From: an uncultured virus (IMG/VR IMGVR_UViG_3300021407_000014)
Taxonomy: Duplodnaviria; Heunggongvirae; Uroviricota; Caudoviricetes
DNA length: 20,000 bases
IMG/VR virus record: IMGVR_UViG_3300021407_000014
Strand: one strand, 5' to 3'
The position numbers and the translations under genes are program-made. The stretch's first letter is position 1. Every line of letters starts with the position of its first letter. Shown piece after piece: positions 1,120 to 18,913 of this stretch. The notes beneath the pieces are model-generated. The model was not told the DNA's origin and searched no databases. It worked only from the letters and a program-made list of their open reading frames with translations.

Positions 1120-2691
1120 TCAGATATCCAAGACGCGATTGCGTTGAGCCTCGACAGACTCCGGCGAGCTTGCGGGGCGCGCGCGTCCCTTGGCCCATTC
1201 GCGCAACGCTTGCAGCTTGTCCCCCGCGGTTTTGCTCAGGGGCACCACGGTTGCAGCGGCCGCGAGCAGGTCCCCTGTGGTCAAGCATCGCTCCCCGTCC
1301 GCGAACGCGGTGAACATGGCGTCCGGGACGAGCGCGGCGATCTCCGCCCCCGAGAATCCCGCGCACGCGCGCGCGACTTGCCCGACGTCAACGGGCGGCG
1401 CACCTACTTGGCCGTTCGCGAGAACGGGCGCCAGCGTCGCGCGCAAGACTTCGGCGCGCTCGCGCTCCGTGGGGAGGTCGACCCAAAAGACTTCGTCAAA
1501 GCGACCCTTGCGAAGTAGCTCGGGCGGAAGGCTTCGCACGTCGTTTGCTGTCGCGATGACAAAGACGGATCCCGTGCGTTCTTGCATCCACGACAGGATA
1601 ACTCCAAGCGCATCGGCGCTTACCCCGCCGTCCCCTTGCGGTCCCGTCGCGCCAGCCATGGCTTTTTCTATCTCGTCCACGTGAAGCACGCACGGCGAGA
1701 CTGTGTCGGCCACGGCGAGAGCCTTGCGGATGTTCCCCTCTGACTCGCCCACATACTTGGACTTGAGTGCTCCCATGTCGAGGCGCAACAGAGGGAAACC
1801 CCACGCGGTCGAAACACACTTGGCGGTGAGAGTCTTTCCCGTTCCGGGCGGACCGCAAAGGAGCATCCCCCGGGGAGCCGAAAGACCGTAGGCGCGAGCG
1901 CGAGGAGAAAAAGCAGACTTGCGCGTCATAAGCCAAGACTTCAGGAGATCCAGGCCTCCGATCGCGGACAACCCTCGCGGGTCGGGATCGTGCCAGGTGA
2001 GCACGCGTTCGCGAGCAATCACGCGCTTTTTCTCGCTGGCGACAAGCTTGGGGTCAATCGCGCCGCGCGTCTTCACGAGCGAAAGCGAGTAGCAGTTAGC
2101 GGCTTCCTCGGCCGACAGTCCCACAGCGGCATCGATCGCCGCGTCGCGCGTCCCGTTGGGCGCCGCGTTCGCGCGCTTGTCCTCGGGGAGGACTGACACA
2201 GCATCTTCGAGTAACTTCGCAATCTCCGCGCGGTCCGGAAGGGGGTACTCGAGCACAGTCGCATGTCCCGCTAGCTCGGGCGGAACGTCCCCCGAGGGGG
2301 AGAGCACGACGATCGCGCGCTGTTCTGTAAGCGGCGTCCCCTGAAGACTCCGCGCGAGGTTGCGCATGCTGCGAAGGACGATCGGGTCAAGCCACTTGTG
2401 AAGGTCGCGCAGCACGTAGACGTAGCGCTCGCGCGAGTCACGAATGAACGCCAGCATACCGGACGGGTCAGCTAGGCGCGCGTCCAGGATCTTGCCTAGT
2501 TCGTCCGTCATGCCTTGCGCGCAATCCCAGAACCGGACGGGGAGCTTTGCGGCCGCGCTCGCTTCGATGAGAGAGTTTTCGGCACGCTTCTCTTCGCGGG
2601 AAACGATCCAGAGAAGCGCATGCCGCGAGCGGAGTAGCGCGGTTATGTCTTGGTTCACGCGCGCGCCGCGCGTGAGAGAGTCGCTAGTCAT
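1120..2691 (-). CDS. AAA+ ATPase, Ycf46-like architecture (degenerate N-terminal AAA-like domain plus active C-terminal AAA domain)
   Basis: Walker A GPPGTGKT, pore loop KSKYVGESE, Walker B VLHVDEIEK, sensor-1 ATAN, Arg-finger region PPELLRKGRFDE, lid GFSGAEI, C-terminal LREWAKGRARPAS. Confidence 0.93.
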   Translation of the reverse strand: MTSDSLTRGARVNQDITALLRSRHALLWIVSREEKRAENSLIEASAAAKLPVRFWDCAQGMTDELGKILDARLADPSGMLAFIRDSRERYVYVLRDLHKWLDPIVLRSMRNLARSLQGTPLTEQRAIVVLSPSGDVPPELAGHATVLEYPLPDRAEIAKLLEDAVSVLPEDKRANAAPNGTRDAAIDAAVGLSAEEAANCYSLSLVKTRGAIDPKLVASEKKRVIARERVLTWHDPDPRGLSAIGGLDLLKSWLMTRKSAFSPRARAYGLSAPRGMLLCGPPGTGKTLTAKCVSTAWGFPLLRLDMGALKSKYVGESEGNIRKALAVADTVSPCVLHVDEIEKAMAGATGPQGDGGVSADALGVILSWMQERTGSVFVIATANDVRSLPPELLRKGRFDEVFWVDLPTERERAEVLRATLAPVLANGQVGAPPVDVGQVARACAGFSGAEIAALVPDAMFTAFADGERCLTTGDLLAAAATVVPLSKTAGDKLQALREWAKGRARPASSPESVEAQRNRVLDI

Positions 2692-4609: not shown

Positions 4610-5230
4610 CTACTTCAAACGTCTAGGATCTTTCACCATTACACCGACAATCAGGTCGGTGCTGCCGTACGGCCAACGAGCCAAGCCCCCCTCGCTGCGT
4701 AAGTGCGCCAGGGTGCGTGGTGCTCTCGTGGTCCCTATCTCGAGCGGAACCGACCGAGGACAGAGGGTATGCTTGGATGCGACCTGTTTGTTGTCGCGTA
4801 TTACTGTAGTAATTCCAACTATTTCGTCGTTCCACTTGAACCAACCGTCGCTGTCGCAAAGACCGTTGTAGACGGTCGCCGTGAAGAGCGGCTCAAGGCT
4901 CGATAGCACTTCGGCATTCCGCTGACGTGCCGAGTCAGCAAACGGCTCATCCCCGACTTCTACGTGAAAAAAGCACAATTCTCCTGACAACATATGGTCC
5001 CAAACACTGATGAAGCAGTAGGCGTCCTCGATGCTTGGCTCGTGTCCGCCCCAGCGCCTCGCATTGCACGGAGCTTGGAACACGAAGTCGACCATCTCCT
5101 CTGAATAGAAGCCTGATTTCAGCTTATTGCGGATGTCGTGAAGAAACTCGTAGCCGGAAATTCCGTCAGCCGAGTACTCGAGACAGAGTCTTTCGGCGCC
5201 TTTTATGGCTCCACGTTCCCAGACGTTCAC
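4610..5230 (-). CDS. Hypothetical protein (206 aa), lower GC, possibly PD-(D/E)xK-like fold
   Basis: GTG 5230 overlaps the recombinase stop (GTGA). Visibly more AT-rich than its flanks. Motifs DSDGWFKW...VPLEIGTT. Confidence 0.7.
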   Translation of the reverse strand: MNVWERGAIKGAERLCLEYSADGISGYEFLHDIRNKLKSGFYSEEMVDFVFQAPCNARRWGGHEPSIEDAYCFISVWDHMLSGELCFFHVEVGDEPFADSARQRNAEVLSSLEPLFTATVYNGLCDSDGWFKWNDEIVGITTVIRDNKQVASKHTLCPRSVPLEIGTTRAPRTLAHLRSEGGLARWPYGSTDLIVGVMVKDPRRLK

Positions 5231-6171
5231 AGCAACCCCGTCGCCGCGTTGTCGATGAAGAGCGAACCGTGCTCGATGTAGCCGCGCGCCACGGTCTCCG
5301 AGCGCCAACGGCCCTGTTTCATGATGGAAGCGGTCGATCTGCCCTTTGCCGCGGCGGAGGTCGCCAGGCCTCTCCTGAGGCTGTGAGCGCCGAAAAGCTT
5401 CTTGTCGCCGAGGCCAGCGCGCACGGCCGCGCGCTGTACGATGGTCGCGATAGCTCGGGGGGCCGGGAAAAGGCGCGCGCCTGGGGCGAGAGAGGCCATG
5501 TAGGCCTGCATCGTGCGCACAGGGCACCCTAAGTGATTGGAAGCGTACGGTATTCCTACCTCTGCCCCCCGGCCTTCCTGATCCATTTTCGACTTTCGAA
5601 CCAGGACGATCAGCCCTTCGGGGACGAACGAAAGGTCTGCGGGCTCGAGGGCAGAGAGCTCAGAGCGACGGAAAGCTCCAAACCACCCCACGAGCAGGAG
5701 CGCGCGCTCCTGGAGAGGCGCATCCTTGACCATCGAGAGGAGCTGTTCGGCCGAAATAGGCTTCTTTCCTGAGCGTTTGGAGCCTAGATCCTGCCGAATA
5801 GCCTTCATCGTCTTTCGGAGAGCCTCCGAGCGCGGGGGTTCGTGTCCGTTGGCCTCGTGGAAGTGCCAGATCCCCGAGAGGGCGCGCTCGATCGTGGAGA
5901 CCTTGCGTCCCTGTTCCGAGAGCCACTTCACGTAGGCGATGATCGTGAGAGGATGCGCCGGGAGCGAAGGGAGCCCCCGAGAGCTCGTCCAGGCCTGAAA
6001 CCCCTTCCAATCGGCCGCGTAAGCGCGCCGCGTGGCCTTGGGACCCCCTTTGCGCACTCTCTCGTCAGCTCGGGAGAGCAGGCCAGAGACCTCGAGAGCT
6101 GCCTCGGGGGCGATGGAAGCGTCGGTCGGAGCGACGAGAGCGAGGGGAGCGGGAGGGGGGTCGGAATGCAT
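5227..6171 (-). CDS. Tyrosine recombinase, Cre-like (core-binding plus catalytic domain)
   Basis: N-terminal ATRRAYAADWKGFQAW and KVSTIERALSGI; catalytic R (GAFRRSEL), K (KSKMDQ), HxxR (HSLRRG), W (GRWRS), Y (ARGYI). Confidence 0.95.
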   Translation of the reverse strand: MHSDPPPAPLALVAPTDASIAPEAALEVSGLLSRADERVRKGGPKATRRAYAADWKGFQAWTSSRGLPSLPAHPLTIIAYVKWLSEQGRKVSTIERALSGIWHFHEANGHEPPRSEALRKTMKAIRQDLGSKRSGKKPISAEQLLSMVKDAPLQERALLLVGWFGAFRRSELSALEPADLSFVPEGLIVLVRKSKMDQEGRGAEVGIPYASNHLGCPVRTMQAYMASLAPGARLFPAPRAIATIVQRAAVRAGLGDKKLFGAHSLRRGLATSAAAKGRSTASIMKQGRWRSETVARGYIEHGSLFIDNAATGLL

Positions 6172-6212: not shown

Positions 6213-6454
6213 GGCCTTCTCGTCGGCCGCGACCCGAACCCCCAGAACCTCGCGTGACTCGCCCCCCCCTGGGAGAGCCTCGAAAAGGGCCCCAGGTCAC
6301 GCGGGACGCGCGCAGCGCGCGCGGGAGCGCCCCCGACGCCCCCTCGAGAGCCACAATAGGCCGTCCGACGCCCTCTCGACGCCCTCTTTCGCTCTCGGAC
6401 CCTACCCTCTGCGACAGAATTCCGCCCTCGGGGCATCTAGGATAGGCTTGCAGC

Positions 6455-6628
6455 ATGCGCGCGCGCCCATCCGCCCCCCTTTCGACCGAAGAGAAGGCTC
6501 TCCTAGCCGGCGCGGCCGCTTTGGTGGGGGCCATCGTGGGGTACTGGGTCTTCGCGCCGAGCGCGCCGGTCGCGTCAGCGTCGACGAGCGCTCCCGCGGC
6601 GCCCCCCGGGGGCTACGCGCAGGCGTGA
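6455..6628 (+). CDS. Small single-pass membrane protein (57 aa), similar to the 11.7-14.2 kb family
   Basis: Manual translation MRARPSAPLSTEEKALLAGAAALVGAIVGYWVFAPSAPVASASTSAPAAPPGGYAQA; TAGGCT 6 nt upstream of the ATG; not in the ORF track. Confidence 0.75.
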   Translation: MRARPSAPLSTEEKALLAGAAALVGAIVGYWVFAPSAPVASASTSAPAAPPGGYAQA

Positions 6629-6823: not shown

Positions 6824-7735
6824 ATGTCGAAACGACCTCGCATGTGCGGCTGCGGCCACGAGGAGACCAGCCACCTCGTGAACAAGAAGGACCCGAAGGG
6901 CCCGCGCGGCGCGTGCAACTACGGGCACGACCATGCGATGGGCGGCTGTCCGTGTCCGAGCTTCCATTCGCGGCGCTGGAAGAGCGACAAGCCGTTCCTA
7001 GTCCCCGGTCCGTTCCCGGGAGCAACGGAGCGACCGTCCATCGCGGCCGCGGTCAAAGCGCTCCGTCGAGAGGTGTTTGACGCGATCGACCGGTTCGAGA
7101 AGGCCGTGCTCGCGGCGCCGAAACCTGCAACGAAAGCCAAGCTTCGGGAAGAGCTTCAGTACCTGGTGCGGAGTGCCGGTCCTGAGCCCGTTTCGATGCT
7201 CGCGACCAACGGCATGTCCCGCGCGCACCAGGCGACCGGCCCCGTCATGGGGCGCTGCGAGCGCGCGCTCCTGGACGTCCTCGCGAGCCGACACGGAAAG
7301 CACACGAGCCCCGGGCAGCTCGCCGTCATGAGCGGCTACAGCTTGAAGAGCTCGGGGTTCGCGAACGCGCTCTCTTCGCTGCGCTCGAGGGGTCTCGCCG
7401 AGGGCTACCGCGACGAGATCCACGTCACCGAAGCTGGGCGCGCGGCGAGCCCCGACGCGAAGCTCCCCACGGGCAGAGCGCTGCTCGAAATGTGGCTTCC
7501 CAAGCTGGGACGCTGCGAGCGGGAGCTGATCAGGTGCCTCCTCGATGTCTACCCGCAGGGGATCCCGAAAGAGGACCTGTCCGAGATGACGGGCTACTCC
7601 ATCACGTCGAGCGGCTTTGCGAACGCGCTCTCGCGCCTGCGGACGCTGGAGCTCGCCGAGGGCTACGACGACATCCGCGCGTCGGCTGCAATCGGAGGGG
7701 AGAAGCCTCTCCGGGATGAGGAGCTAGCGAATTGA
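6824..7735 (+). CDS. Putative DNA-binding protein: N-terminal Cys/His zinc finger plus two tandem winged-helix-like repeats
   Basis: CGCGH..H...C...CPC at the N-terminus. Internal repeat GRCERxL...GYSxxSSGFANALSxLRxxxLAEGY occurs twice. Confidence 0.8.
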   Translation: MSKRPRMCGCGHEETSHLVNKKDPKGPRGACNYGHDHAMGGCPCPSFHSRRWKSDKPFLVPGPFPGATERPSIAAAVKALRREVFDAIDRFEKAVLAAPKPATKAKLREELQYLVRSAGPEPVSMLATNGMSRAHQATGPVMGRCERALLDVLASRHGKHTSPGQLAVMSGYSLKSSGFANALSSLRSRGLAEGYRDEIHVTEAGRAASPDAKLPTGRALLEMWLPKLGRCERELIRCLLDVYPQGIPKEDLSEMTGYSITSSGFANALSRLRTLELAEGYDDIRASAAIGGEKPLRDEELAN

Positions 7736-8079
7736 AAGTCATCGTCGCCGGCTCCCGCGACATCAAGTCTCTCGAAGACGTTCGCCACGCGATCCACGAG
7801 AGCGGCTACAGCGTGACGGAGCTCGTCTCGGGCTGCGCGAAGGGCGTAGACGCGCTTGGAGAAGCGTGGGCGCGCGCCGCAGGGGTGCCTATCAAGCGCT
7901 TTCGACCGAACTGGGCGGGCCAGGGCTCGTACGCCGGTCCGGCGCGCAACCAGAGGATGGCCGACTACGCCGAGGCGCTCGTGGCGGTGACCCACTCGCC
8001 CTGGACGCCGGGCACCGCGGACATGATCCGCCGCGCGCGAGCGAAGGGGCTGCTCGTGTACGTGAAGGAGGTTCCGTGA
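7732..8079 (+). CDS. SLOG-superfamily protein (YspA-related / DUF2493-like)
   Basis: MKVIVAGSR...ELVSGCAKGVDALGEAWA...NW...AGPARNQRMADYAEALVA...GTADMIRRA. Confidence 0.9.
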   Translation: MKVIVAGSRDIKSLEDVRHAIHESGYSVTELVSGCAKGVDALGEAWARAAGVPIKRFRPNWAGQGSYAGPARNQRMADYAEALVAVTHSPWTPGTADMIRRARAKGLLVYVKEVP

Positions 8080-8866: not shown

Positions 8867-10870
8867 TTACGGTCCAGGGAAAACGACGGCGTCGAAGATG
8901 ATCGAGCTGAACGAGTCCGGACGGTAGGCGCCGCCCACGGCATCGTAGCCCGCTCCGCCCGTCGACTGGTGCGCTTGCTGGTAACCGCCTCCGCCTACGG
9001 GCGTGAGCAGTGAAGCCCACGTGAACGCCCGAAGGCCAGCGACCGACGCTCCCGTAGCCGGATCGAACGCATACGCCTCCGTCGGGCTTCCGCTCACGAT
9101 GGCCCCGTCCAGGATAGGGCCCATGAGCGCGTCCGCGAAACCACTCTTCAAGAGCGGCGGCAGAAGGTCGGCAGTCGCCGCGACGACCTGCACGATGTGC
9201 ATGCTCGTGTGCTCTCGGAACGTGTTCGTGGAGTTGCCGGTGAAGCTCGAATCGCCCCAGAGAGCGGGGTAGCCCATGGCCGACGTAAACGGCGAGGCCG
9301 CGTGGAACGAGATCGAGCTCTGCGGAAACATCGCAAAGTTCACGCCGTCCATGTTCCAGAACGCGAGCGGTCCGGCGGAGATGTTCGCGCCGCCGCCTAC
9401 CCCGAAGCCTCCAATGGAGAAGGTCGAATCCGGACCCGTGCCGTTGTTGCCCACGGACGTCACGCTGTCCACGTACATGAACGACCCGCCCTCGAACGAG
9501 GTCGCGAACGAGCCTTGGACAGCCCCGAAGGCCCAGCTACAGCCATCGGAGTTCGCCTGACCCAGGAACGTGACGAACGCGTTGTTGAAGCACGGGTTGA
9601 CGAGGAACGTCAGGTTCCCCGTGAACGTGATGTTCGGTCCCTCGTCCGGAGGCCCGTTGAAGATGACGTCGCAGTAGATCATGGTCGTCGTGGACGTGAG
9701 CGGGATGATCCCGTCCAAGATCACCGGTCCAGGGAACTGGGGCGCTGGCGTTGTCGCCGGAGGCGAGATGAGCGTCAGGTACTGGAGAGCGAAGACGCCG
9801 CTCTGTCCCGGCCGGGTCTGCGACTCGGCCGCCGAAGAGTCGTTGCCCGCGAGGCACGGGCCCAAGACTGCCGACGAGAACTTGACGACTCGGTACTCGT
9901 CCCCCGGAGCCGGGCTTCCGAAGAAAGAAGCAAGGCCGGTGAGCCCTGGCGAGAAGTTCGGGACCGGAAAGTTGCCCGTCTGCGAAGCGTAGAGGAGTTC
10001 CGAGAGCTGGACCGTGCCGCCGCCCTTGTCGATGACCGGGTAGGCCCTCGCTCCGAAGACGTCCTCGGGATAGAACGGTCCCAAGGCGCCCGTCAGGAAC
10101 TGCACCTGCGTCTGAAAGAGGAACGATGACCAGTCGGGGACGGTCGGGTCGGTGATCGTCCACGGCGTGTTGGTGAAGATGTCCTCGGTCTGCTCGGCCG
10201 TGATGGTCCCCGTATGCAGAACGGTCTGCGTTCCGATGATGACCACGGAGTTGTTGGCGCCGATGAAGTTGTAGAACGTGATGGGGTCGTTCACGGGCAG
10301 GTCGCCCAAGAGGAAGATGTTGATCTGCTTCACGATGGGCGTGTAGAGGACCGCGCCGCCCGTGTACGCGTTCACGAAGTGCGATCCCTCGAGCAGTAGC
10401 TCGGTGGGCGACACGACCTTCACGGTCCAGATCCCGATCGACTCGTGCGTTCCGATCGTCCCAGCGAAGGTGAGGAAGAACGCCGTCACCTCGACTTGGC
10501 TTCCCGTCACGACCCCCGCGGGCGGATTCGCGAGCGTGAGGAGGATCTGACCTCCGGCACCCGCGGTCATGTTCGTGATGTTGATCTGGTTGAAGGGCGG
10601 ATCCGGCGGGCCCGGTGGGTTCCTGTCCTCCGGGGGAGGAATAAAGATGGTCGTGAAGCGACCGAAGCGCTCCTGGAGCTCGGCGTACGTCTTGAGCGCC
10701 GTCTGTGGCGTGAAGCCGTTGGCGTTGTCGTCTCCGTTGACCGGATCGATGTAGTAGTTGGGGTTGACTGGGACGAAGTTCCCTCCGCCCTCTTCCCCCG
10801 GCATTCTGGGCCGGTACATCGCTTCGGCTGCTGCCCTTTGAATGTCCCCTCGAGCAACGGAGTTTCTCAT
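8867..10870 (-). CDS. Large spike/fibre-like protein, predicted beta-helix (667 aa)
   Basis: YYIDPVNGDDNANG...ALKTYAE cap motif typical of pectin-lyase-like beta-helices; G/S/T/F/N-rich; SD AGAGGAAAG. Confidence 0.8.
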   Translation of the reverse strand: MRNSVARGDIQRAAAEAMYRPRMPGEEGGGNFVPVNPNYYIDPVNGDDNANGFTPQTALKTYAELQERFGRFTTIFIPPPEDRNPPGPPDPPFNQINITNMTAGAGGQILLTLANPPAGVVTGSQVEVTAFFLTFAGTIGTHESIGIWTVKVVSPTELLLEGSHFVNAYTGGAVLYTPIVKQINIFLLGDLPVNDPITFYNFIGANNSVVIIGTQTVLHTGTITAEQTEDIFTNTPWTITDPTVPDWSSFLFQTQVQFLTGALGPFYPEDVFGARAYPVIDKGGGTVQLSELLYASQTGNFPVPNFSPGLTGLASFFGSPAPGDEYRVVKFSSAVLGPCLAGNDSSAAESQTRPGQSGVFALQYLTLISPPATTPAPQFPGPVILDGIIPLTSTTTMIYCDVIFNGPPDEGPNITFTGNLTFLVNPCFNNAFVTFLGQANSDGCSWAFGAVQGSFATSFEGGSFMYVDSVTSVGNNGTGPDSTFSIGGFGVGGGANISAGPLAFWNMDGVNFAMFPQSSISFHAASPFTSAMGYPALWGDSSFTGNSTNTFREHTSMHIVQVVAATADLLPPLLKSGFADALMGPILDGAIVSGSPTEAYAFDPATGASVAGLRAFTWASLLTPVGGGGYQQAHQSTGGAGYDAVGGAYRPDSFSSIIFDAVVFPGP

Positions 10871-10896: not shown

Positions 10897-11325
10897 TTAT
10901 GTCCGTTCCCGGATCAGATCCTGGAACCAAGTGTTGCTCAAAGCCCGCGGGCCTCGAGCTCTCTTCACAGCCTGGATAGCTGTCTCGGGGATGACGCCAA
11001 GCTCCATGAGCGCGTGAGCCACGACAAGTCCCGACCGGTTGAACCCCTGCCAGCACGTTACAAGCACTCGATTGCCCACCGCTCGAGCTTTCGCGACGAT
11101 GCGCCCGGCGTCTTCGGCCCAGCGTACTTGGTTCTCGGTAGGAGGCTTTCCCGAGTCATCGAGCGGTACGCGCAAGACGTGCGTGCCAGGTCCGAACGGC
11201 TCGCGCCACTGTGGGAGCTGGTACTCTTCGGCGCAGAGCACGACCAGATCGAACGGAAGCGTCTGTCCCGGCTTGGGCGCGCTTCCCTGGTACAGGCCGG
11301 GCGCCACCCGGGAAGCATCAAGCAC
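10897..11325 (-). CDS. Dual-specificity (CX5R) phosphatase (142 aa)
   Basis: Start re-assigned to GTG 11325. GLYQGSAP, general-acid loop VPLDD, P-loop VLVTCWQGFNRSG, AIQAVKRARG, LSNTWF. Confidence 0.92.
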   Translation of the reverse strand: MLDASRVAPGLYQGSAPKPGQTLPFDLVVLCAEEYQLPQWREPFGPGTHVLRVPLDDSGKPPTENQVRWAEDAGRIVAKARAVGNRVLVTCWQGFNRSGLVVAHALMELGVIPETAIQAVKRARGPRALSNTWFQDLIRERT

Positions 11326-11333
11326 GCGCGCTC

Positions 11334-11708
11334 TCAGGTGCCGGTGCTTACAGGAAGTGCGGGAGAAGGTGCGGGAGAAGCTTGTGCTTGCTCGGTCTGC
11401 TGCGTGTCCCAGCTGCTCTCGAGCTGGCCCGCCGAGTTGATGCACTCGGGCATGAGCCCGTAGGTTACGTAGTACCGCGCGGCCCAGAGCGAACCGATAA
11501 CGGTCCCCACGGCTCCAATCGCAGCGGTGACGCCGAACGCGCGCTGATACTTTTCTGACGCGAAGAGTCCCACGACTCCTACGCCCGTCGCGGCGAGCCC
11601 GAGAAAGAGCGTGCCCAGAGACCCGTACTGCTGAAGCGACAGGTCCGAGCACATGGGGGTCTGCGCGGGCGGGGACTGACCGAGGCCTCTGGAACGAATG
11701 GGTGTCAT
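11334..11708 (-). CDS. Small membrane protein with two predicted TM helices
   Basis: Hydrophobic segments GSLGTLFLGLAATGVGVVGLFA and AFGVTAAIGAVGTVIGSLWAA; one Cys on each side of the hairpin. Confidence 0.8.
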   Translation of the reverse strand: MTPIRSRGLGQSPPAQTPMCSDLSLQQYGSLGTLFLGLAATGVGVVGLFASEKYQRAFGVTAAIGAVGTVIGSLWAARYYVTYGLMPECINSAGQLESSWDTQQTEQAQASPAPSPALPVSTGT

Positions 11709-12154
11709 GCGTTGTCGACGATGGGTGTGGGTTGGTTCCCGATCGTCGTCCCTTGCTGGAGGAGCTGGTTCGCTTGGTTGTTCACGCCGACGACGCTCCC
11801 CTGGTTCGCAGCGAGCTGCGCTTGGGCCTGTGACGAGAGAGCGGCCTGGGAAGCCTGCGAGTTCTTGTAGATCGCGTACCCGATGCCTCCAAGCACCAGA
11901 GCGCCGAGACCTCCCAAGAGAAGCGTGTTGCGTGAGAGAGGGTTACCTCTCCACCTCGGCCACGTGGCCGTGTAGCTTTGCTCAAGCAATCGAAACTGGG
12001 TCTTGGCTGCCGGCGCAGAAGGGGCCCGGATGAACCTGTCGGAGTCGTCATCGCTGACGAGGTAGAGAGGGTCTCCGACCCCCCAGTATCGACCGCGCCT
12101 GTCGTAACCTTGGCGATCGATACGAATGCGCTCGGCGTAGACCCTGCCAGCCAT
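11705..12154 (-). CDS. Single-pass membrane protein with N-terminal extra domain (NP family)
   Basis: N-domain RIRIDRQGYDRRGRYWGVGDPLY..., then RWRGNP-LSRNTLLLGGLGALVLGGIGYAIYKN and a Gln/Ala-rich tail. Confidence 0.85.
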   Translation of the reverse strand: MAGRVYAERIRIDRQGYDRRGRYWGVGDPLYLVSDDDSDRFIRAPSAPAAKTQFRLLEQSYTATWPRWRGNPLSRNTLLLGGLGALVLGGIGYAIYKNSQASQAALSSQAQAQLAANQGSVVGVNNQANQLLQQGTTIGNQPTPIVDNA

Positions 12155-12516
12155 CAGTACCCCAGGTTCCAGCCAATTTCGTTGCCGCCGGTCACCTGCG
12201 CGGGGATCCCAGGCGACGCGGGCGTCGTGATGACGGGAGCGTTCTGCGCCTGGAGAGGAATGGTCGACGAGCCCGTGGGTGTGAGCACGTTGCTCGCGCC
12301 GGGGGGCGTCACCACGGTCGTCTGCGCCGACGCCGGAGGGAACGCGGGGGGCGCTGGGAGAACGCCGGACGCGACAGGGGCTACAGCAGGCTGGTTCGCT
12401 CGGTAGATCGCATACGCGATGCCCGCGATCACCGCGCCGCCCACGCCGAGCAGAAGCAGCTTCTGCGTGTCGGGAGAGATAGGATTGCGTCTGTAGTGCC
12501 TGCGTCTGCGTGCCAT
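12154..12516 (-). CDS. Single-pass membrane protein with Arg-rich leader (NP family)
   Basis: MARRRRHYRRNP-ISPDTQKLLLLGVGGAVIAGIAYAIYR; Pro/Thr/Ala-rich tail. Confidence 0.88.
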   Translation of the reverse strand: MARRRRHYRRNPISPDTQKLLLLGVGGAVIAGIAYAIYRANQPAVAPVASGVLPAPPAFPPASAQTTVVTPPGASNVLTPTGSSTIPLQAQNAPVITTPASPGIPAQVTGGNEIGWNLGY

Positions 12517-12519
12517 GAC

Positions 12520-12825
12520 TCAGCTCCCTGCCGGCACGGGCGTCCCGATGGGAGGCGCGCCTGCGTAGTTCCCGCCCAGAGCCTGCTCGGCAACGCCCTG
12601 GCTGACGTTGTAGACCGGATTGCCCTGCGTGAGCTGCTGGAGCGGGGAAGCCGCCTGCGTGACCTGGTTACCCACTTGACCTGCCGCTCCCGAGACCTGC
12701 GCAGCGGCGGCTTGGGTGCTCTGCTGCGTCTTGTAGACCGCGTACACGAGACCGCCCACGACGGCAGCTCCCACCCCGATCGTGATCCATTCGTTTCGCG
12801 TGAGGCCGTGCGTTTTCTTAGCCAT
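12520..12825 (-). CDS. Single-pass membrane protein (family member with short basic leader)
   Basis: MAKKTHG-LTRNEWITIGVGAAVVGGLVYAVYK; Gln/Ala-rich tail. Confidence 0.85.
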   Translation of the reverse strand: MAKKTHGLTRNEWITIGVGAAVVGGLVYAVYKTQQSTQAAAAQVSGAAGQVGNQVTQAASPLQQLTQGNPVYNVSQGVAEQALGGNYAGAPPIGTPVPAGS

Positions 12826-12837
12826 GCTTCTCTCTTC

Positions 12838-13032
12838 TCAAAGCCCCGGCAGGAGCGTAACGAGCCCGGCGACCGACGACGTGTCTTCCGCTGTTCCCAG
12901 CGTCGTCGGTGCCTGACCCAAGGACTTCACGATGGCGTAGAGACCGAGGCCCGTGAGAAAAAGCGACCCAACACCGAGCACCACGGTCTCTGTGTCCGTG
13001 ATGCCTTGATCTTGGGTCCCTTTCGCGCGCAC
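12838..13032 (-). CDS. Single-pass membrane protein (64 aa, family member)
   Basis: MRAKGTQDQG-ITDTETVVLGVGSLFLTGLGLYAIVK; SD AAGGAG upstream of the GTG. Confidence 0.82.
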   Translation of the reverse strand: MRAKGTQDQGITDTETVVLGVGSLFLTGLGLYAIVKSLGQAPTTLGTAEDTSSVAGLVTLLPGL

Positions 13033-13045
13033 GAGTTCTCCTTCG

Positions 13046-13444
13046 TCAGCCCGCGTAGTTCGGGTTGCCGACCGAGCCTGGCGCGACCGCGTTCGCCTGC
13101 TGCGCGTACTGCGCGGGGGTCATGCCTTGGTTGTACGCATCCTGCGCTTGCGCCGACGAGAGCCCGAGCTGCTGCGCTTGCGCATTGAAGTTCTGCGCGT
13201 ACTGCGTTGCGCTCGCGGCGAGAGCTTGGTCGCTCGCGTTGGCCGGGGCGGGCCCGCCGGATGCGCTCGTGCTCGCAGGAGTGCTCGAGTTCTTGTAGAG
13301 GATGTACCCGAGCGTCCCAACGACCGCGAGGCCCATCGCGCCGAAGACGAACATCCGCTCTTCGTGCTTCTTGTGAGCCGTGGGAGAGAGTCCTTCGGGA
13401 TTGGACCGGTAGTAGCGCCTATGCCTTCGACGGCGACGAGCCAT
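13046..13444 (-). CDS. Single-pass membrane protein with Arg-rich leader (NP family)
   Basis: MARRRRRHRRYYRSNP-EGLSP...MFVFGAMGLAVVGTLGYILYKN; Gln/Ala-rich tail; SD GGAGG. Confidence 0.87.
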   Translation of the reverse strand: MARRRRRHRRYYRSNPEGLSPTAHKKHEERMFVFGAMGLAVVGTLGYILYKNSSTPASTSASGGPAPANASDQALAASATQYAQNFNAQAQQLGLSSAQAQDAYNQGMTPAQYAQQANAVAPGSVGNPNYAG

Positions 13445-13446
13445 GA

Positions 13447-13878
13447 TCAGCCTCCCTGGGGAACGACTTCGTAGCCATTCAAGGTCTGGACACCCGTGGG
13501 CGTGACGCCCTGGACGGCCGCACCCGACTCGGCCGACGTCGGCAAGAGCGCGTTGCTCGCGCTCGTGCCCGCCGTGGGGTTGAAGTGCTTGTAGAGCAGG
13601 TAGCCGCCCACGCCGAGGACCGAGAGGCCGATGAGCCCCCCGATGACGATCTCGGTGTCGGTCGTGATGGGGTTGCGTCGTCGGTAGTGTCGCCTGCGGG
13701 CCATGGTCGTCTCCTGGGTGAGGTGAGAAGAGAGTAGCTTTGCTTCGCGGTCGGCTTTCCTGAAGCTCATGGGCCCCGCGACCGCCCGTGAGTGGAAGAA
13801 CACGTAGTGCGAGCGACCGACGTTCAGGACCGAGACGTCGGGCGCGTAACGGAAGTGCTTGGGTCTCCTGTAACTCAC
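13447..13878 (-). CDS. Single-pass membrane protein (NP family) with a probable second in-frame start at 13704
   Basis: GTG 13878 overlaps the upstream stop. Internal ATG 13704 has SD AGGAG and gives MARRRHYRRRNP-ITTDTEIVIGGLIGLSVLGVGGYLLYK. Confidence 0.82.
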   Translation of the reverse strand: MSYRRPKHFRYAPDVSVLNVGRSHYVFFHSRAVAGPMSFRKADREAKLLSSHLTQETTMARRRHYRRRNPITTDTEIVIGGLIGLSVLGVGGYLLYKHFNPTAGTSASNALLPTSAESGAAVQGVTPTGVQTLNGYEVVPQGG

Positions 13879-14162
13879 GAGAACCCCGGCACGAAAGGCG
13901 GAACCTGGTCTGCGACGCCGGCCATGGGCGGCATGGTCGCAGGCGTGGTCCCAGAGCTCGGGCTCGAGCCCTGCGAGCCCTGCGATAGCTGCACGGGCGC
14001 CGCGCTCGCCTTGGATGCGTAGGCGACGATCGCGACGAAGGCCGCGAGCCCCGCGAGGCCGAGCACGACCTTCTCGGTGTCGGTCATGGGGCCGGTCGGG
14101 TTGCGCCGCGCGTACCCGCGCCGCCTCTTGACACGTCTCCGTCGAGTGCTCAGGCGGCTCAC
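13875..14162 (-). CDS. Single-pass membrane protein with Arg-rich leader (NP family), first of the array
   Basis: MSRLSTRRRRVKRRRGYARRNP-TGPMTDTEKVVLGLAGLAAFVAIVAYASK; TAGGAT 6 nt upstream of the GTG. Confidence 0.85.
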   Translation of the reverse strand: MSRLSTRRRRVKRRRGYARRNPTGPMTDTEKVVLGLAGLAAFVAIVAYASKASAAPVQLSQGSQGSSPSSGTTPATMPPMAGVADQVPPFVPGFS

Positions 14163-14212
14163 TCCCGAATCCTACATCAAGTCGCGCGAACCATCTAGGC
14201 TCTGGCCTAGAG

Positions 14213-14575
14213 CTAAGCCAACGAAACGACGACTCTATCTCCCACCTTGACGTCGTGACGTGCTGCGAATCCGCCGTTTACCTCGAGCACTGTGGTCGAC
14301 GGACGATGGATCTGGTGACCGTCCCCCTCGGTGGGCTGGAGGGAGAGTACGCCAACCACGCGATCGTAGTCGAGAAAGATGAGGTCGAGTGGGATGCGCG
14401 TCCGACGCATCGTAAACACGTGGTTCGTGCGCGTCCCCAGCCAAAAGAGCATTCCGCCCATCTCGTCGAGCTCTGTACGACCCATGAGCCCTCGGGCGAG
14501 CTCCTCAGGGCTCTCGGCGATGTCGACCTGCACTGATACGCCCTGCCGGGGGAAGCTCACGAAGCCGGGGGTCAT
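14213..14575 (-). CDS. DUF192 family protein
   Basis: VDIAESPEELARGLMGR...GMLF...FTMRRTRIPLDLIFL...VLEVNGGFAARHDVKVGDRV. Confidence 0.92.
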   Translation of the reverse strand: MTPGFVSFPRQGVSVQVDIAESPEELARGLMGRTELDEMGGMLFWLGTRTNHVFTMRRTRIPLDLIFLDYDRVVGVLSLQPTEGDGHQIHRPSTTVLEVNGGFAARHDVKVGDRVVVSLA

Positions 14576-14584
14576 CTCGGGCTC

Positions 14585-15130
14585 CTAGAGTAGCTCAATC
14601 GAACCTCCATGCACCGAGGTCTGGGTGATGTCCGTCGAATTGCCGGGCTGGATCGTGAAGTCGAGATTGTTGGCCACGGTCGTATTCACCGTGGCGGCGG
14701 CCGTGAGCCCGACTCCCGCTTGCACAACCGCTCCGGCCGGCCCTCCGGAGTAGCCGATTTGACCAAGCGCGCTTCCCGTGGCTCCCAGCGTGTAAATGGC
14801 CGCGTTGGTCTCGTACGACCATGGAACCGTCGTCTTCGCTGCTGCGGCCGTGGTGAGCGCCACGCTCGCGATGACGGCGTTCGAGCTTGCAGCGCCTCCC
14901 ACGCCGTTCACAGCGCCCGTTCCCATACGCAGGCGAAGCGTGAGCGTGCTCGCCGCCGCGATGTTCGTCGACACGCCCCAGAGCTTGACCCGCACGAGAC
15001 GTCCGGCTGTGAGATAGCCCACCGGGATCCCGGTGAACGAGATCCCGACGAGCTCCGAGGTGACCGCTCCGAACGAGGTGATCGCGAAGACGCGGGCAAG
15101 AACCCGAGGGACAGAAAGAAGCGCGCTCAC
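14585..15130 (-). CDS. Beta-rich putative virion structural protein (181 aa)
   Basis: Start re-assigned to GTG 15130, just after the upstream stop; alternating beta-strand pattern, Thr/Ala/Gly-rich. Confidence 0.7.
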   Translation of the reverse strand: MSALLSVPRVLARVFAITSFGAVTSELVGISFTGIPVGYLTAGRLVRVKLWGVSTNIAAASTLTLRLRMGTGAVNGVGGAASSNAVIASVALTTAAAAKTTVPWSYETNAAIYTLGATGSALGQIGYSGGPAGAVVQAGVGLTAAATVNTTVANNLDFTIQPGNSTDITQTSVHGGSIELL

Positions 15131-17010: not shown

Positions 17011-17880
17011 CTAGGGGATGGGGTGCGTGTTCGTCGTGTTCGCGGCGATGCGATCCAGGGCCTGCTGGATAGTCTTAGGCGCGGTCCCGGCCCAGTTCCC
17101 AGGAACGGCGGGCGTGTAGAGGATGTTCGGCGCGCTGTCCGAGGGATCGTACTGGTTCGCGCCCGAGAAAAGAGCGCTCGCGAGAGGCGGCGTGGACCCG
17201 TCCGCTTCCCACGCAACGGTCGACGTCTCGACGCCGCCGATCTCGTTGCCGGTGACCAGGAACTCGAAGTGCTGCGCCGCGTCCTGGACGAAGAACCGTC
17301 CCGTGGCGTTCGCGCTGATCTGGATGACCGCGACCGTGGGCGCTAGCGAGTTGTCCAAGACACTCAGCCGCGAGGCCATCGAGAAGAGTCCCCCTCCGAA
17401 GGTCTGGAGAGCCGGGACGGTCGCGCCCGCGTCGAGCACGATGCTCGCAAAATCGTCCATCACGAAGAGGAAGTTGTTCTCGAACGAGAGAGCGTTGGTG
17501 GTCAGGCACTGGCAAGCGACCACGAGCCCCTCGAACTTGGCCCAATCGCTCAGCGTGGCGCCGTCCAGGATGGTCAGGACGTCTGCGCCCGCCACGTACG
17601 CCGACAGCTTCGCCGCTCCGAATCCGTCATATGTTCCCGGAGGTACCTGCGCAGCCGCGAGCGACGAGTCCACGTAGAGCGTCGTGGCTCCCTGGACGGA
17701 CTGAAGCGCAGCGAACGCCGACGCCCAAGTCGTGTACACGTTCCCACCCGCGACGCCTCCCGGACGGAAGATGATCCCGTCGGCCACTGCGCTCGAGGCG
17801 CCTCCGCCCCCGCGAGTACGCAGAAGGGCCTCGTCGGCGACCTGACGCGTGATGATGTTCCCTCGGAAGTCTCGGCTCAT
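17011..17880 (-). CDS. Spike/fibre-like protein (289 aa), probable beta-helix core
   Basis: N-terminal TRQVADEALLRTRGGGG; VYTTWASAFAAL...VPPGTY; C-terminal YTPAVPGNWAGTAPKTIQQALDRIAA; SD AGGAG. Confidence 0.82.
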   Translation of the reverse strand: MSRDFRGNIITRQVADEALLRTRGGGGASSAVADGIIFRPGGVAGGNVYTTWASAFAALQSVQGATTLYVDSSLAAAQVPPGTYDGFGAAKLSAYVAGADVLTILDGATLSDWAKFEGLVVACQCLTTNALSFENNFLFVMDDFASIVLDAGATVPALQTFGGGLFSMASRLSVLDNSLAPTVAVIQISANATGRFFVQDAAQHFEFLVTGNEIGGVETSTVAWEADGSTPPLASALFSGANQYDPSDSAPNILYTPAVPGNWAGTAPKTIQQALDRIAANTTNTHPIP

Positions 17881-17899: not shown

Positions 17900-18913
17900 T
17901 CAGGGGATGGGGCCAATTTTGGCCGCGATGCGGTCCAGGGCGTTGCCTATGCTCGACGGGCCAACTCCGGACCAGTTGGCTAGGTTTGTCGGGTCGTACT
18001 GAATACCGTCGCCCGTAGTGCCCAGGGTGACGGATGCGCCTCCGGCAACGACAAAGCCCGACGGGAATCCGTCCGCCGTGGACGTGTACGAAGCATTTGC
18101 TCCGGTCACGAGTAAAGGACCGACAACACTGCCTCCGGCAGCATTCATGTCGCAGGCTCCGGCTCCGGGAGCAGAGATAGTCAGCTTCGCAAAATAGGTG
18201 CTCTCTGGCTCGGACGTCGCCGCGACTGCTCCGGCAGACTGAAGCGTCACGTCATTCGCAATAGACGTGTTGAACGGGAAGAAGTTGCAGGTCGTGAAGA
18301 CTGCTGTGTTCCCGTCGCAAATACATGAATCCAGCGTGAACGAGCAACTATCATCTACACCGGTAACAGTGAGATTTCCGCTGTACACGACTCCAACGTT
18401 GTCCACGAAACCAGGTGTCGCGCTGTACGTGAACGTGGAGTCTCCAAGAATGTTGAAATTGAGTAGTCCTGTTTGTCCGTTCGCTGGGAACGCCGGGTCC
18501 AGTGAGACACCGCCCGTGAGCGTCGTGGTGATGATGTCTGGGCCCTCGATGTACACGCCACTCTTTAGGACGATGCTCTCTGCGTAGGTTCCCGGTCCCA
18601 CCGTGACCACGTACAGCTTCGAGGGAGAAGCGTCCGTGATGCTTGCTTGCGCGGCTCCGATGGTCAAAAACGGAAGCCCGATGGTTCCGTTTCCCGTCGC
18701 ATCACTCCCGCCCTTGTTCACGTAGACGATCTGTGAGGCCACGGGACGCGGGCCCATCCTCGCGACCTGACTTCCGGTGCCGGGCCCCGCGGTGACTTCG
18801 CCCGTGAGCTGGTCGATTCCTCCGGCACCCCCGGCGCTCCGCGAACGAAGAAGGGCCTCGTCCGCGAGGCGGCGCGTGTTCTGGATCTGCCGGAAATCTC
18901 GCATGGTGGGCAC
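17900..18913 (-). CDS. Spike/fibre-like protein (337 aa) with pectin-lyase-like beta-helix
   Basis: VYVNKGGSDATGNGTIGLPFLTIGAA...VGPGTYAE beta-helix cap; shared N- and C-terminal motifs. The start may be ATG 18904. Confidence 0.85.
   Translation of the reverse strand: MPTMRDFRQIQNTRRLADEALLRSRSAGGAGGIDQLTGEVTAGPGTGSQVARMGPRPVASQIVYVNKGGSDATGNGTIGLPFLTIGAAQASITDASPSKLYVVTVGPGTYAESIVLKSGVYIEGPDIITTTLTGGVSLDPAFPANGQTGLLNFNILGDSTFTYSATPGFVDNVGVVYSGNLTVTGVDDSCSFTLDSCICDGNTAVFTTCNFFPFNTSIANDVTLQSAGAVAATSEPESTYFAKLTISAPGAGACDMNAAGGSVVGPLLVTGANASYTSTADGFPSGFVVAGGASVTLGTTGDGIQYDPTNLANWSGVGPSSIGNALDRIAAKIGPIP

What the first reader, a model, noticed from the sequence alone, without database searches (positions are those of the whole stretch)
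11705..14162. Array of seven paralogous membrane proteins with Arg-rich leaders ending in R-x-N-P: candidate virion-membrane loading and processing system
Seen: seven consecutive, tightly packed genes encode a basic N-terminus, a short [ILM]-[ST]-xx-[TE] cap, one Gly-rich TM helix typically ending Y-x-[ILV]-Y-[KR], and unrelated low-complexity tails. Five carry R-x-N-P before the cap (HYRRNP, YYRSNP, YRRRNP, YARRNP, RWRGNP). The two without it have short leaders ending in Gly. Established: tailless internal-membrane phages such as PRD1 and PM2 encode many small membrane proteins; Arg-rich peptides bind nucleic acid; Asn-Pro is the autocleaved bond in FlhB/EscU. Inference: these are virion membrane proteins whose Arg-rich leaders face the genome (positive-inside rule), and NP is a shared sorting or maturation-cleavage signal. 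I do not recognise this as a described family.
Basis: partly seen in the sequence, partly recalled or inferred. Interest (0 to 1): 0.88.

Follow-up and report, generated by a model that had tools for sequence, protein, structure and literature searches.

The report
Arg–Asn-Pro membrane-anchor gene family array
Seven neighbouring genes of an uncultivated bacterial virus encode one unnamed family of small single-pass membrane proteins sharing an arginine-rich arm, an Asn-Pro turn and a glycine-rich helix, probably building or decorating a viral membrane.

Summary
Seven tightly packed minus-strand genes (11705-14162) are true paralogues. A profile built only from a related virus finds all seven among 350 window ORFs (E 1.4e-16 to 3.4e-4). 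The family has 162 clusters at E<=1e-3 among 1.84 billion proteins, all metagenomic, with no consistent Pfam or PHROG family. Asn-Pro is kept in 130 of 140 credible members, although the profile favoured it.

The virus belongs to a 55-127 kb group. Two of its three conserved capsid-like proteins were modelled and both look like jelly rolls. Searches found no terminase (two Pfam families), no HK97 capsid family and no FtsK ATPase over cut-off. This partly supports the tailless-virus idea.

Against a core virion role, strong multi-copy presence occurs in only 4 of 33 related genomes.

Best reading (0.45): N-in/C-out anchors of a viral membrane or assembly patch, in which R-x-N-P plus [LI]-[ST]-x-x-E forms a structural helix start. 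Cleavage at Asn-Pro is unsupported but not excluded (about 0.13). A role as accessory proteins in the host membrane remains a serious rival (0.27).

The parts
13875..14162 (-). g1, 95 aa: RRRRVKRRRGYARRNP-TGPMTDTE cap, one TM helix, tail ending VPPFVPGFS
   Evidence: E 9.8e-12 with the leave-window-out HMM. The C-terminal motif recurs in P0088, P0142, L056:8812-9255, L057:6396-6947 and L059:5483-5677.
13447..13878 (-). g2, probably 143 aa (GTG 13878; alternative ATG 13704 gives 85 aa): 58-aa N-terminal domain, MARRRHYRRRNP, ITTDTE cap, TM helix, tail ending NGYEVVPQGG
   Evidence: E 1.4e-16; extension 55/58 identical to P0018, GC3 0.81; subfamily alignment A7
13046..13444 (-). g3, 132 aa: MARRRRRHRRYYRSNP, longer spacer (EGLSPTAHKKHEER), TM helix YILYK, Q/A-rich tail
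   Evidence: E 8.5e-9
12838..13032 (-). g4, 64 aa: no NP (QDQG-ITDTE), TM helix, acidic tail of the EDTSxLAxLAxVV type
   Evidence: E 3.4e-4. NP-bearing relatives of this tail type: P0070, P0071, P0135, P0138, L058:4435-4665.
12520..12825 (-). g5, 101 aa: no NP; begins MAKKTHGLTRNEW, which aligns to the residues just after NP in relatives P0059 and P0147
   Evidence: E 1.7e-5
12154..12516 (-). g6, 120 aa: MARRRRHYRRNP-ISPDTQ, TM helix YAIYR, Pro/Thr/Ala-rich tail ending GWNLGY
   Evidence: one relative, P0002, 79% identical; E 3.8e-12
11705..12154 (-). g7, 149 aa: about 60-aa N-terminal domain, RWRGNP-LSRNT, TM helix YAIYK, Q/A/N-rich tail
   Evidence: E 2.8e-8. The N-terminal domain is shared with P0043 and P0100. 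The Atlas gave leads only.
11334..11708 (-). Eighth gene of the block: 124-aa protein with two hydrophobic stretches by eye (no program run); not a family member
   Evidence: no hit with the family HMM
14213..14575 (-). DUF192 gene directly upstream of the array; conserved neighbour
   Evidence: Pfam PF02643 E 7.4e-25. It is adjacent to the first array gene in the window, G003, G004 and G005, that is 4 of 5 genomes.

Best explanation
The seven genes are a tandem array of one undescribed, virus-borne family of bitopic membrane proteins.

Shown:
- They share a module. It consists of a basic, Tyr-containing arm, then R-x-N-P, then a helix-start box [LIV]-[ST]-x-x-[E/T], then a Gly-rich helix of about 20 residues, then Y-x-x-Y and K/Q.
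- This module is joined to variable parts. About a fifth of members carry an N-terminal domain. The C-terminal part is a low-complexity tail or a small beta-rich domain, and it often ends in a subfamily-specific aromatic motif.

Inferred:
- The proteins insert N-in/C-out late in infection. The basis is charge: +3.3 before the helix against +0.3 after it.
- The arm, the Asn-Pro turn and the capped helix fix orientation and depth.
- The Gly-rich helices let paralogues pack side by side into a virus-specific membrane patch.
- In this jelly-roll-capsid virus lineage, which lacks any recognisable terminase, the patch most likely becomes or organises a virion membrane. The arms on the cytoplasmic face would bind capsid or DNA, and the tail-end motifs would dock to other partners.
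- Asn-Pro is read as a structural turn or helix start, not a cleavage site.
For: Paralogy and family:
- The leave-window-out HMM finds all 7 genes.
- The profile search finds 162 proteins at E<=1e-3 and 17 at E<=1e-10 among 1.84 billion.
- NP is kept in 130 of 140 members and N in 138 of 140. R at -2 occurs in 100 of 130, L/I/V after P in 91 of 130, and S/T next in 79 of 130.

Topology: the net charge difference comes.

Late-gene context:
- The array lies in a co-directional block (19999 to 8456) between conserved late genes and spike-like proteins.
- Promoter and terminator matches there are at chance level.

Virus type:
- The window's own contig carries the capsid-like protein P0170 (same 74,785-bp longest contig).
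- The 420/201/312 trio is syntenic in 36 of 37 loci.
- Terminase_6N 0 of 33, Phage_capsid 0 of 33, TerL_ATPase 0 of 24.
- The late module of relative G001 holds further proteins with C-terminal anchors.

Co-occurrence: the three viral records found from the NP side all carry the capsid-like gene.
Against: - The family is not core to the virus group. Only 10 of 33 genomes match at E<=1e-3, and strong multi-copy presence occurs in 4 (13, 19, 9 and 8 matches). G002, which shares the late genes, has one weak helix-only match.
- Copy number and tails turn over fast. Only g2, and weakly g3, have a BLAST-detectable counterpart in G001.
- G001, G003, G004 and G005 hold further copies away from the array that follows DUF192 (G001 near 25-28 kb). 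One G004 member directly follows a lysin gene.
- No lipid, virion or expression data exist.
- No packaging ATPase of either known kind was found, so the particle type is not settled.
- The profile contained NP in 13 of 15 rows, so the NP count is biased upward.
Confidence: 0.45

Rival explanations
1. Accessory proteins acting in the host cell membrane rather than in the virion. They could be lysis-timing or holin-like factors, superinfection-exclusion factors or envelope-remodelling proteins. Their extracytoplasmic tails and end motifs would engage the cell wall or surface components.
For: - Distribution is lineage-restricted and copy number is highly variable: 7 here, 8-19 matches in four relatives, 0-2 in the other 29.
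- Tails are hypervariable and mosaic.
- Further copies lie away from the DUF192-linked array in G001, G003, G004 and G005.
- One member lies immediately after the Rv2525c-like lysin homologue in G004.
- The virus is temperate, since it encodes an integrase.
- N-in/C-out with a large outside part is the layout recalled for class III holins such as T4 T.
Against: - No endolysin was recognised in the window.
- None of the few scattered sub-threshold Pfam and PHROG hits among the 120 members scanned was to a holin or exclusion family.
- Seven to nineteen paralogues is far more than known lysis or exclusion systems use.
- The tails are neutral, not charged like holin C-termini.
- The main array sits in the late block after structural-like genes.
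Confidence: 0.27
2. R-x-N-P is a shared sorting or maturation-cleavage signal. The arm, or the N-terminal domain, is removed at Asn|Pro, either by autocleavage or by the conserved transglutaminase-fold enzyme, during loading of the viral membrane.
For: - N-P is nearly invariant at a fixed distance from the helix: P to the most hydrophobic 19-residue stretch is mostly 5-6 residues.
- Natural leaderless variants start just after the NP position. These are g5 against P0059 and P0147, L057:7404-7724 and L059:5483-5677.
- The capsid-like protein carries NP in its first 40 residues in 24 of 50 relatives; by eye in the printed rows most of these follow basic residues and read N-P-x-R-h-I-G-L-G. The window virus's own copy, P0170, does not.
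- A papain/transglutaminase-fold protein with conserved Cys, His and Asp is found in 31 of 37 loci.
Against: - In 29 of 134 members N lies more than 40 residues in, behind conserved domains. g2's domain is better conserved than its tail.
- Eight members have N-Q, N-T or N-A in place of N-P.
- FlhB/EscU cleavage needs NPTH inside a folded domain (recalled). No such Pfam domain was hit, and only g1 has NPT(G).
- The enzyme is present in most genomes that lack the family.
- An earlier scan note also reports no link to the protease (unchecked AI note).
- [LI]-[ST]-x-x-E fits a helix capping box with a hydrophobic staple (recalled rule), which explains the conservation without cleavage.
Confidence: 0.13
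3. Pilin-like subunits with an unusual class III signal. A basic leader would be cut before a hydrophobic residue with Glu at +5, giving subunits that polymerise through their N-terminal helices.
For: - If the cut were after Pro (or after Gly in g4 and g5), Glu falls at +5 in 37 of 130 members and in g4 and g5.
- The helix ends in Y-x-x-Y, as recalled for type IVa pilins (Y24, Y27).
Against: - Gly at -1, the defining prepilin-peptidase feature (recalled), is absent in all 130 NP members.
- There was no N_methyl or Flp Pfam hit.
- Residues +2 to +4 are polar, unlike pilins.
- N-terminal domains of up to about 170 residues do not fit a class III leader.
- No pilus assembly genes were seen in the window or G001.
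Confidence: 0.03

Closest known systems
Small integral membrane proteins of internal-membrane tailless phages (PRD1 membrane proteins; PM2 P3-P10) - recalled, not tested by sequence
   Same: Many small single-pass proteins are encoded together in late operons. The virus has jelly-roll capsid-like proteins and spike-like proteins.
   Different: Those proteins are not one paralogous family and have no R-x-N-P module. Their viruses are 10-15 kb and encode an FtsK/HerA-type ATPase, which was not found here. Here the genomes are 55-127 kb, and the family is strongly present in only 4 of 33 relatives.
FlhB/EscU/YscU export-gate proteins (NPTH autocleavage)
   Same: An Asn-Pro bond lies near a membrane domain, and g1 reads NPTG.
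   Different: The motif there lies in a folded cytoplasmic C-terminal domain after four TM helices (recalled). Here it sits in an unstructured juxtamembrane arm before a single helix. There was no Pfam match, and His is absent.
Type IV prepilin / Flp class III signal peptides
   Same: A basic leader, a hydrophobic helix, frequent Glu five residues after the putative boundary, and Y-x-x-Y at the helix end.
   Different: There is no Gly at -1, the first helix residues are polar, there are no N_methyl or Flp hits, and some members have long N-terminal domains.
Inovirus major coat proteins (M13 g8p, Pf3 coat) - recalled
   Same: A small bitopic viral membrane protein with one basic end that binds DNA, inserted in the host membrane before assembly.
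   Different: The polarity is reversed, with the basic end C-terminal in inoviruses. Those are a single gene rather than an array, and they have no long tails.
Class III holins such as T4 T - recalled
   Same: N-in/C-out with one helix and a sizeable outside part.
   Different: There is no adjacent endolysin in the window, no family match, 7-19 copies per genome, and neutral low-complexity tails.

Membership tests
FlhB/EscU-type Asn|Pro autocleaving proteins | NPTH motif inside the conserved cytoplasmic export-gate domain (Pfam Bac_export_2; name recalled) | tested here: not met
   No such Pfam hit among the 7 window proteins or the 120 family members. The residues after NP are mostly L/I then S/T. 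Only g1 has NPT, followed by G.
Tat (twin-arginine) signal peptides | Invariant consecutive Arg-Arg in S/T-R-R-x-F-L-K, followed by an h-region and an AxA cleavage site near the N-terminus (recalled) | tested here: not met
   R at -2 occurs in 100 of 130, but the next residue is R in only 48, E in 28 and K in 19. P, not F/L, follows N. In 29 of 134 members the motif is more than 40 residues in.
Type IV prepilins / Flp pilins | Gly at -1 of the cleavage site | tested here: not met
   By construction all 130 NP members have Pro at that position. Only g4 and g5 have Gly.
Type IV prepilins / Flp pilins | Glu at +5 in a hydrophobic N-terminal helix; N_methyl or Flp profile match | tested here: inconclusive
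   E at +5 in 37 of 130 (E, Q or D in 54). Residues +2 to +4 are polar. There were no Pfam hits.
Virion membrane proteins of PRD1/PM2-like (double jelly-roll) phages | [quoted passage not shown] | tested here: inconclusive
Virion membrane proteins of PRD1/PM2-like (double jelly-roll) phages | FtsK/HerA-type packaging ATPase next to the capsid genes | tested here: not met
   FtsK_SpoIIIE: 0 of 24 genomes over cut-off, with one match at E 0.006. No Walker A motif in late-module ORFs of G001 or G002. Only one Pfam family was tried.
Virion membrane proteins of PRD1/PM2-like (double jelly-roll) phages | Protein physically present in a lipid-containing virion | not testable with these tools
   The virus is uncultivated and no proteome or lipid data were available.
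Holins | Small membrane protein encoded beside the endolysin, with a match to a holin family | tested here: not met
   No endolysin in the window and no holin Pfam or PHROG hit. One member in relative G004 does follow a lysin homologue.
Tailed phages (Caudoviricetes), as the home of the array | Large terminase and HK97-fold capsid protein | tested here: not met
   Terminase_6N 0 of 33, TerL_ATPase 0 of 24 and Phage_capsid 0 of 33, with controls positive. PHROG and Pfam scans of G001 and G002 genes found none. Portal families were not searched one by one.

The most novel reading that the evidence does not exclude
In a large virus lineage with no recognisable packaging motor, the membrane-anchored Arg/Tyr arms would work together with the huge Arg-rich protein encoded beside the capsid genes. 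Together they would condense the genome and tie it to a viral membrane. R-x-N-P would be a shared maturation mark, also present at the N-terminus of many capsid-like proteins, and would be cut by the conserved transglutaminase-fold enzyme. That would amount to an adenovirus-like core-and-protease logic in a bacterial virus.
Probability: 0.1. Interest if true: 0.88.

Novelty: new variant of a known kind. Interest (0 to 1): 0.64.

Why it matters
Small viral membrane proteins are usually orphans. Here one conserved anchor module (arm, Asn-Pro, capped Gly-rich helix) is reused 7-19 times per genome with swapped ends. That makes it a tractable handle on how a virus builds or addresses a membrane. 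It also marks a widespread group of 55-127 kb uncultivated bacterial viruses with jelly-roll capsid-like proteins and no recognisable terminase. The passages I read of the 2018 survey of prokaryotic double jelly-roll viruses (PMC5894146) give 7-18 kb for such genomes. If the proteins are virion components, they give testable candidates for capsid-membrane-genome linkage in a new kind of large tailless phage.

Tried and rejected
- The whole genome of the window is not held.
- An exact 42-base pattern from the window end found nothing in viral contigs.
- blastn of 11000-15000 against phage records found no match.
- tblastn of two G001 late proteins against phages found no match.
- The word-indexed search with g6 found only itself and one relative.
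- A genome-contig scan with the 271-aa late protein found none. The scan with the capsid-like profile found only 4 short MAG contigs, 2 Acidimicrobiales and 2 Ca. Binatia. The host therefore stays open, since binning is weak evidence.
- Sequence searches of PDB with the 512-aa protein and with profiles A4 and A5 found nothing.
- The Atlas search for the 312-aa protein gave no named family. For g7 the best feature score was 0.75, to a viral cluster, which is only a lead.
- Complex prediction of the capsid-like protein with g2 gave no verdict (score 0.00, controls not run). This is neither for nor against binding.
- Literature searches for the motif found nothing relevant. 'RRNP' hit only the RRNPP quorum-sensing papers (listing seen). 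Searches for large jelly-roll soil viruses and for DUF192 also found nothing. This is not proof of absence.
- Promoter and terminator scans were at chance level.
- A nucleotide-level explanation of the motif was considered but not pursued.
Full report
**Observation**

Seven ORFs lie head to tail on the minus strand between 14162 and 11705. Spacing runs from a 4-nt overlap to a 13-nt gap. Third-position GC is 0.73-0.88, as expected for real genes in this 57-69% GC window.

- Five carry R-x-N-P: YARRNP, YRRRNP, YYRSNP, HYRRNP and RWRGNP.
- g4 and g5 instead read QDQG-ITDTE and KTHG-LTRNE.
- Each has one strongly hydrophobic 19-mer.
- Y-x-[ILV]-Y-[KR] is exact in 5 of 7.
- The alignment of the seven keeps only M1, one Gly and one Tyr invariant, so paralogy needed an outside test.

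An HMM built only from the eight members of a related complete virus (G001) hits exactly these seven among the 350 six-frame ORFs of the window. E-values run from 1.4e-16 to 3.4e-4. There is one marginal helix-only hit at 6446-6625. The array is real.

**Corrections**

g2 most likely starts at GTG 13878, which overlaps g1's stop.
- The 58 residues upstream of the internal Met are 55/58 identical to relative P0018, against 69/84 for the rest.
- The three changes are R/K, K/R and L/I.
- GC3 of this stretch is 0.81.

So in g2 and g7 the NP lies at about residue 68-70 behind a small N-terminal domain, and only g1, g3 and g6 have short Arg-rich N-termini. An eighth membrane-protein gene (11334-11708) continues the block but is not family.

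**The family**

A 47-position profile was built from 15 sequences (7 window, 8 G001; A2) and read against 1.84 billion representatives. It gave 162 proteins at E<=1e-3 and 17 at E<=1e-10.

Of the best 150, 134 have NP within 22 residues before the most hydrophobic stretch. I then dropped ten rows:
- six that look like chance helix matches: P0092, P0103, P0104, P0109, P0130, P0139;
- four long or uncertain ones: P0078, P0099, P0113, P0117.

After that, 130 of 140 keep NP and 138 keep Asn. The exceptions are six N-Q, one N-T, one N-A, and g4 and g5.

Around NP the pattern is:
- R at -2 in 100 of 130;
- R, E or K at -1 in 48, 28 and 19;
- Y, R or H at -4;
- L/I/V after Pro in 91;
- S/T next in 79;
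- Glu at the fifth residue in 37;
- then a Gly-rich helix and Y-x-x-Y.

Thirteen of the 15 profile rows contain NP, so this count is biased towards NP.

Net charge is +3.3 in the 20 residues before the helix and +0.3 after it. By the positive-inside rule (established knowledge) this means N-in/C-out.

In 29 of 134 members Asn lies more than 40 residues in. Some of these may be mis-called starts. Others, such as g7, P0043, P0100 and g2, have conserved N-terminal domains.

Ten clusters looked up are all metagenomic and either unnamed or 'hypothetical protein'. Among the 120 members scanned, no Pfam or PHROG family recurs. The most is 2 members each, for TMP_2, Chordopox_A13L, Big_9 and DUF533.

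**Tails**

The tails are low-complexity (Q/A/S/T/P/G), or in some relatives small beta-rich domains. They are not featureless, because subfamilies end in conserved motifs:
- VPPFVxG[FT], as in g1;
- NGYPV[AV], as in g2 (alignment A7);
- NWW[ND]S[LW];
- QVGYE;
- EDTSxLAxLAxVV, as in g4.

g5 begins exactly where relatives P0059 and P0147 continue after NP. Leaderless members also occur in G004 and G005.

**The virus**

The window holds an integrase, an AAA+ ATPase 46% identical to one of Mycobacterium phages, a dual-specificity phosphatase and DUF192. It has no tRNA.

Through the conserved 271-aa late protein I reached two complete relatives, G001 (63.4 kb) and G002 (69.6 kb). PHROG and Pfam scans of their genes found replication and recombination genes but no terminase, portal or capsid family.

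A 420-aa G001 protein has 336 relatives at E<=1e-5. One of them (P0170) lies on a contig of the same length as the one holding g6, 74,785 bp.
- Its model has pLDDT 84.2 and pTM 0.83 and is beta-rich.
- Foldseek found nothing at E<=1e-3 in PDB or BFVD.

The 420/201/312 trio is syntenic in 36 of 37 viral loci, from contigs of up to 127 kb; the fuller records are 53-127 kb.

Six-frame family searches gave:
- Terminase_6N 0 of 33;
- Phage_capsid 0 of 33;
- TerL_ATPase 0 of 24;
- FtsK_SpoIIIE 0 of 24 over cut-off.

Controls were positive.

So the array belongs to a group that is not recognisably tailed and has jelly-roll capsid-like proteins. Its packaging enzyme is unknown, and the fold evidence is moderate. 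Two earlier notes of this scan on a 127-kb member reached the same reading. They are AI notes, not independent evidence.

**Distribution**

Searching 33 genomes of the group with profile A2, 10 match at E<=1e-3. Only the four closest relatives are rich: G001 13, G003 19, G004 9 and G005 8 matches. The rest have 0-2 weak, mostly helix-only matches.

Within those genomes the first array starts right after DUF192 in the window, G003, G004 and G005, and three genes later in G001. Second arrays lie elsewhere, and one G004 member follows a lysin homologue.

Only g2, and weakly g3, has a BLAST counterpart in G001.

The three viral records found with the g2 subfamily all carry the capsid-like gene.

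**Mechanism**

The conserved part is a membrane anchor.
- [LIV]-[ST]-x-x-E-hydrophobic fits the classical capping box with hydrophobic staple (recalled rule).
- Asn and Pro are favoured at helix N-cap and N1 (recalled).

I therefore read R-x-N-P as a turn that ends the arm and starts the helix.

The Gly-rich helix suggests lateral packing (inference).

The late, co-directional context has no signals above chance. Together with the virus type and the other anchored late proteins of G001, this favours a role in a viral membrane or its assembly patch (0.45).

The patchy distribution, fast turnover and extra arrays support the rival that these are accessory host-membrane proteins (0.27).

Cleavage at Asn|Pro (0.13) has several hints:
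- the leaderless variants;
- a similar NP motif near the N-terminus of the capsid-like protein in 24 of 50 relatives, though not in P0170;
- a transglutaminase-fold protein with conserved Cys, His and Asp in 31 of 37 loci.

Three things argue against it. N-terminal domains precede NP, the N-Q, N-T and N-A variants exist, and the enzyme is present where the family is absent.

**Known families**

FlhB-type, Tat, prepilin and holin memberships each fail a defining feature (see Membership tests).

The nearest analogy is the set of small membrane proteins of PRD1 and PM2. The family itself is unnamed.

My four literature searches for the motif and the virus type found no description of either. I saw listings only, except for passages of PMC5894146, which give 7-18 kb for prokaryotic double jelly-roll viruses.

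Noticed in passing
relatives: L018 10001-12891 (G001 54939-57829); 36 of 37 loci L018-L054: A strictly syntenic trio of about 420, 201 and 312 aa. Two of them model as jelly-roll-like folds. The genomes are 55-127 kb, and searches with two terminase Pfam families and the HK97 capsid family found none. This looks like a large uncultivated group of probably tailless bacterial viruses.
   Followed up: partly
L024 8223-9746; L018 8191-9924 (G001 53129-54862); 30 loci: Immediately upstream of the capsid-like gene lies a conserved protein of about 200-1200 aa (the two shortest lie at locus ends). Its first half is dominated by runs of Arg, and its C-terminal half is conserved. It could be a DNA-condensing core protein.
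   Followed up: partly
L018 5864-6721 (G001 50802-51659); L024 6986-8005; 31 of 37 loci: A transglutaminase-core (papain-like fold) protein with conserved Cys, His and Asp sits in the late module. In G001 an NP-family member overlaps its 3' end and runs on downstream.
   Followed up: partly
alignment A4, first 40 residues: 24 of 50 capsid-like proteins carry NP in their first 40 residues; by eye most follow basic residues and read N-P-x-R-h-I-G-L-G (not counted). This loosely echoes the family's arm. The window virus's own copy (P0170) has KGLARMIGLG instead.
   Followed up: partly
window 17900-18913, 17011-17880, 8867-10870: Three spike- or fibre-like proteins. Two share the N-terminal ADEALLR.R...GG and the C-terminal ALDRIAA motifs; only the 337-aa one also has QLTGEVTAGPG. 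The 667-aa one starts like a beta-helix protein (YIDPVNGDDNANG). A G001 counterpart carries a GDSL esterase domain (L004 224-1546).
   Followed up: partly
window 14213-14575 and relatives: A DUF192 gene with no signal peptide seen by eye sits directly before the first family gene in 4 of 5 genomes. Its role is unknown.
   Followed up: partly
G001 58184-58555, 58552-59199, 59561-60199, 47499-48806, 48790-50394: Late proteins with a single C-terminal helix. In three the helix ends in a G-[GV]-[IV]-A-Y motif and in three it is followed by basic residues. This is the opposite polarity to the NP family.
   Followed up: no
window 1120-2691 and 278-1366: An AAA+ (Cdc48/FtsH-like) ATPase matches phrog_8638 at E 3.5e-158 and is 46% identical to the AAA-ATPase of Mycobacterium phages. 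The neighbouring gene matches phrog_11021. No counterpart was found in G001 by BLAST.
   Followed up: no
window 10897-11652, 7732-8079, 5227-6171: A dual-specificity phosphatase domain lies just after the membrane-gene block, and its long ORF overlaps the eighth gene. There is also a YspA/SLOG-like domain protein and a tyrosine integrase.
   Followed up: no
L055 6919-7440 (G003): A family member whose N-terminal domain has two Cys pairs (CDDC ... CDAC). This zinc-ribbon-like module precedes the arm and NP.
   Followed up: no
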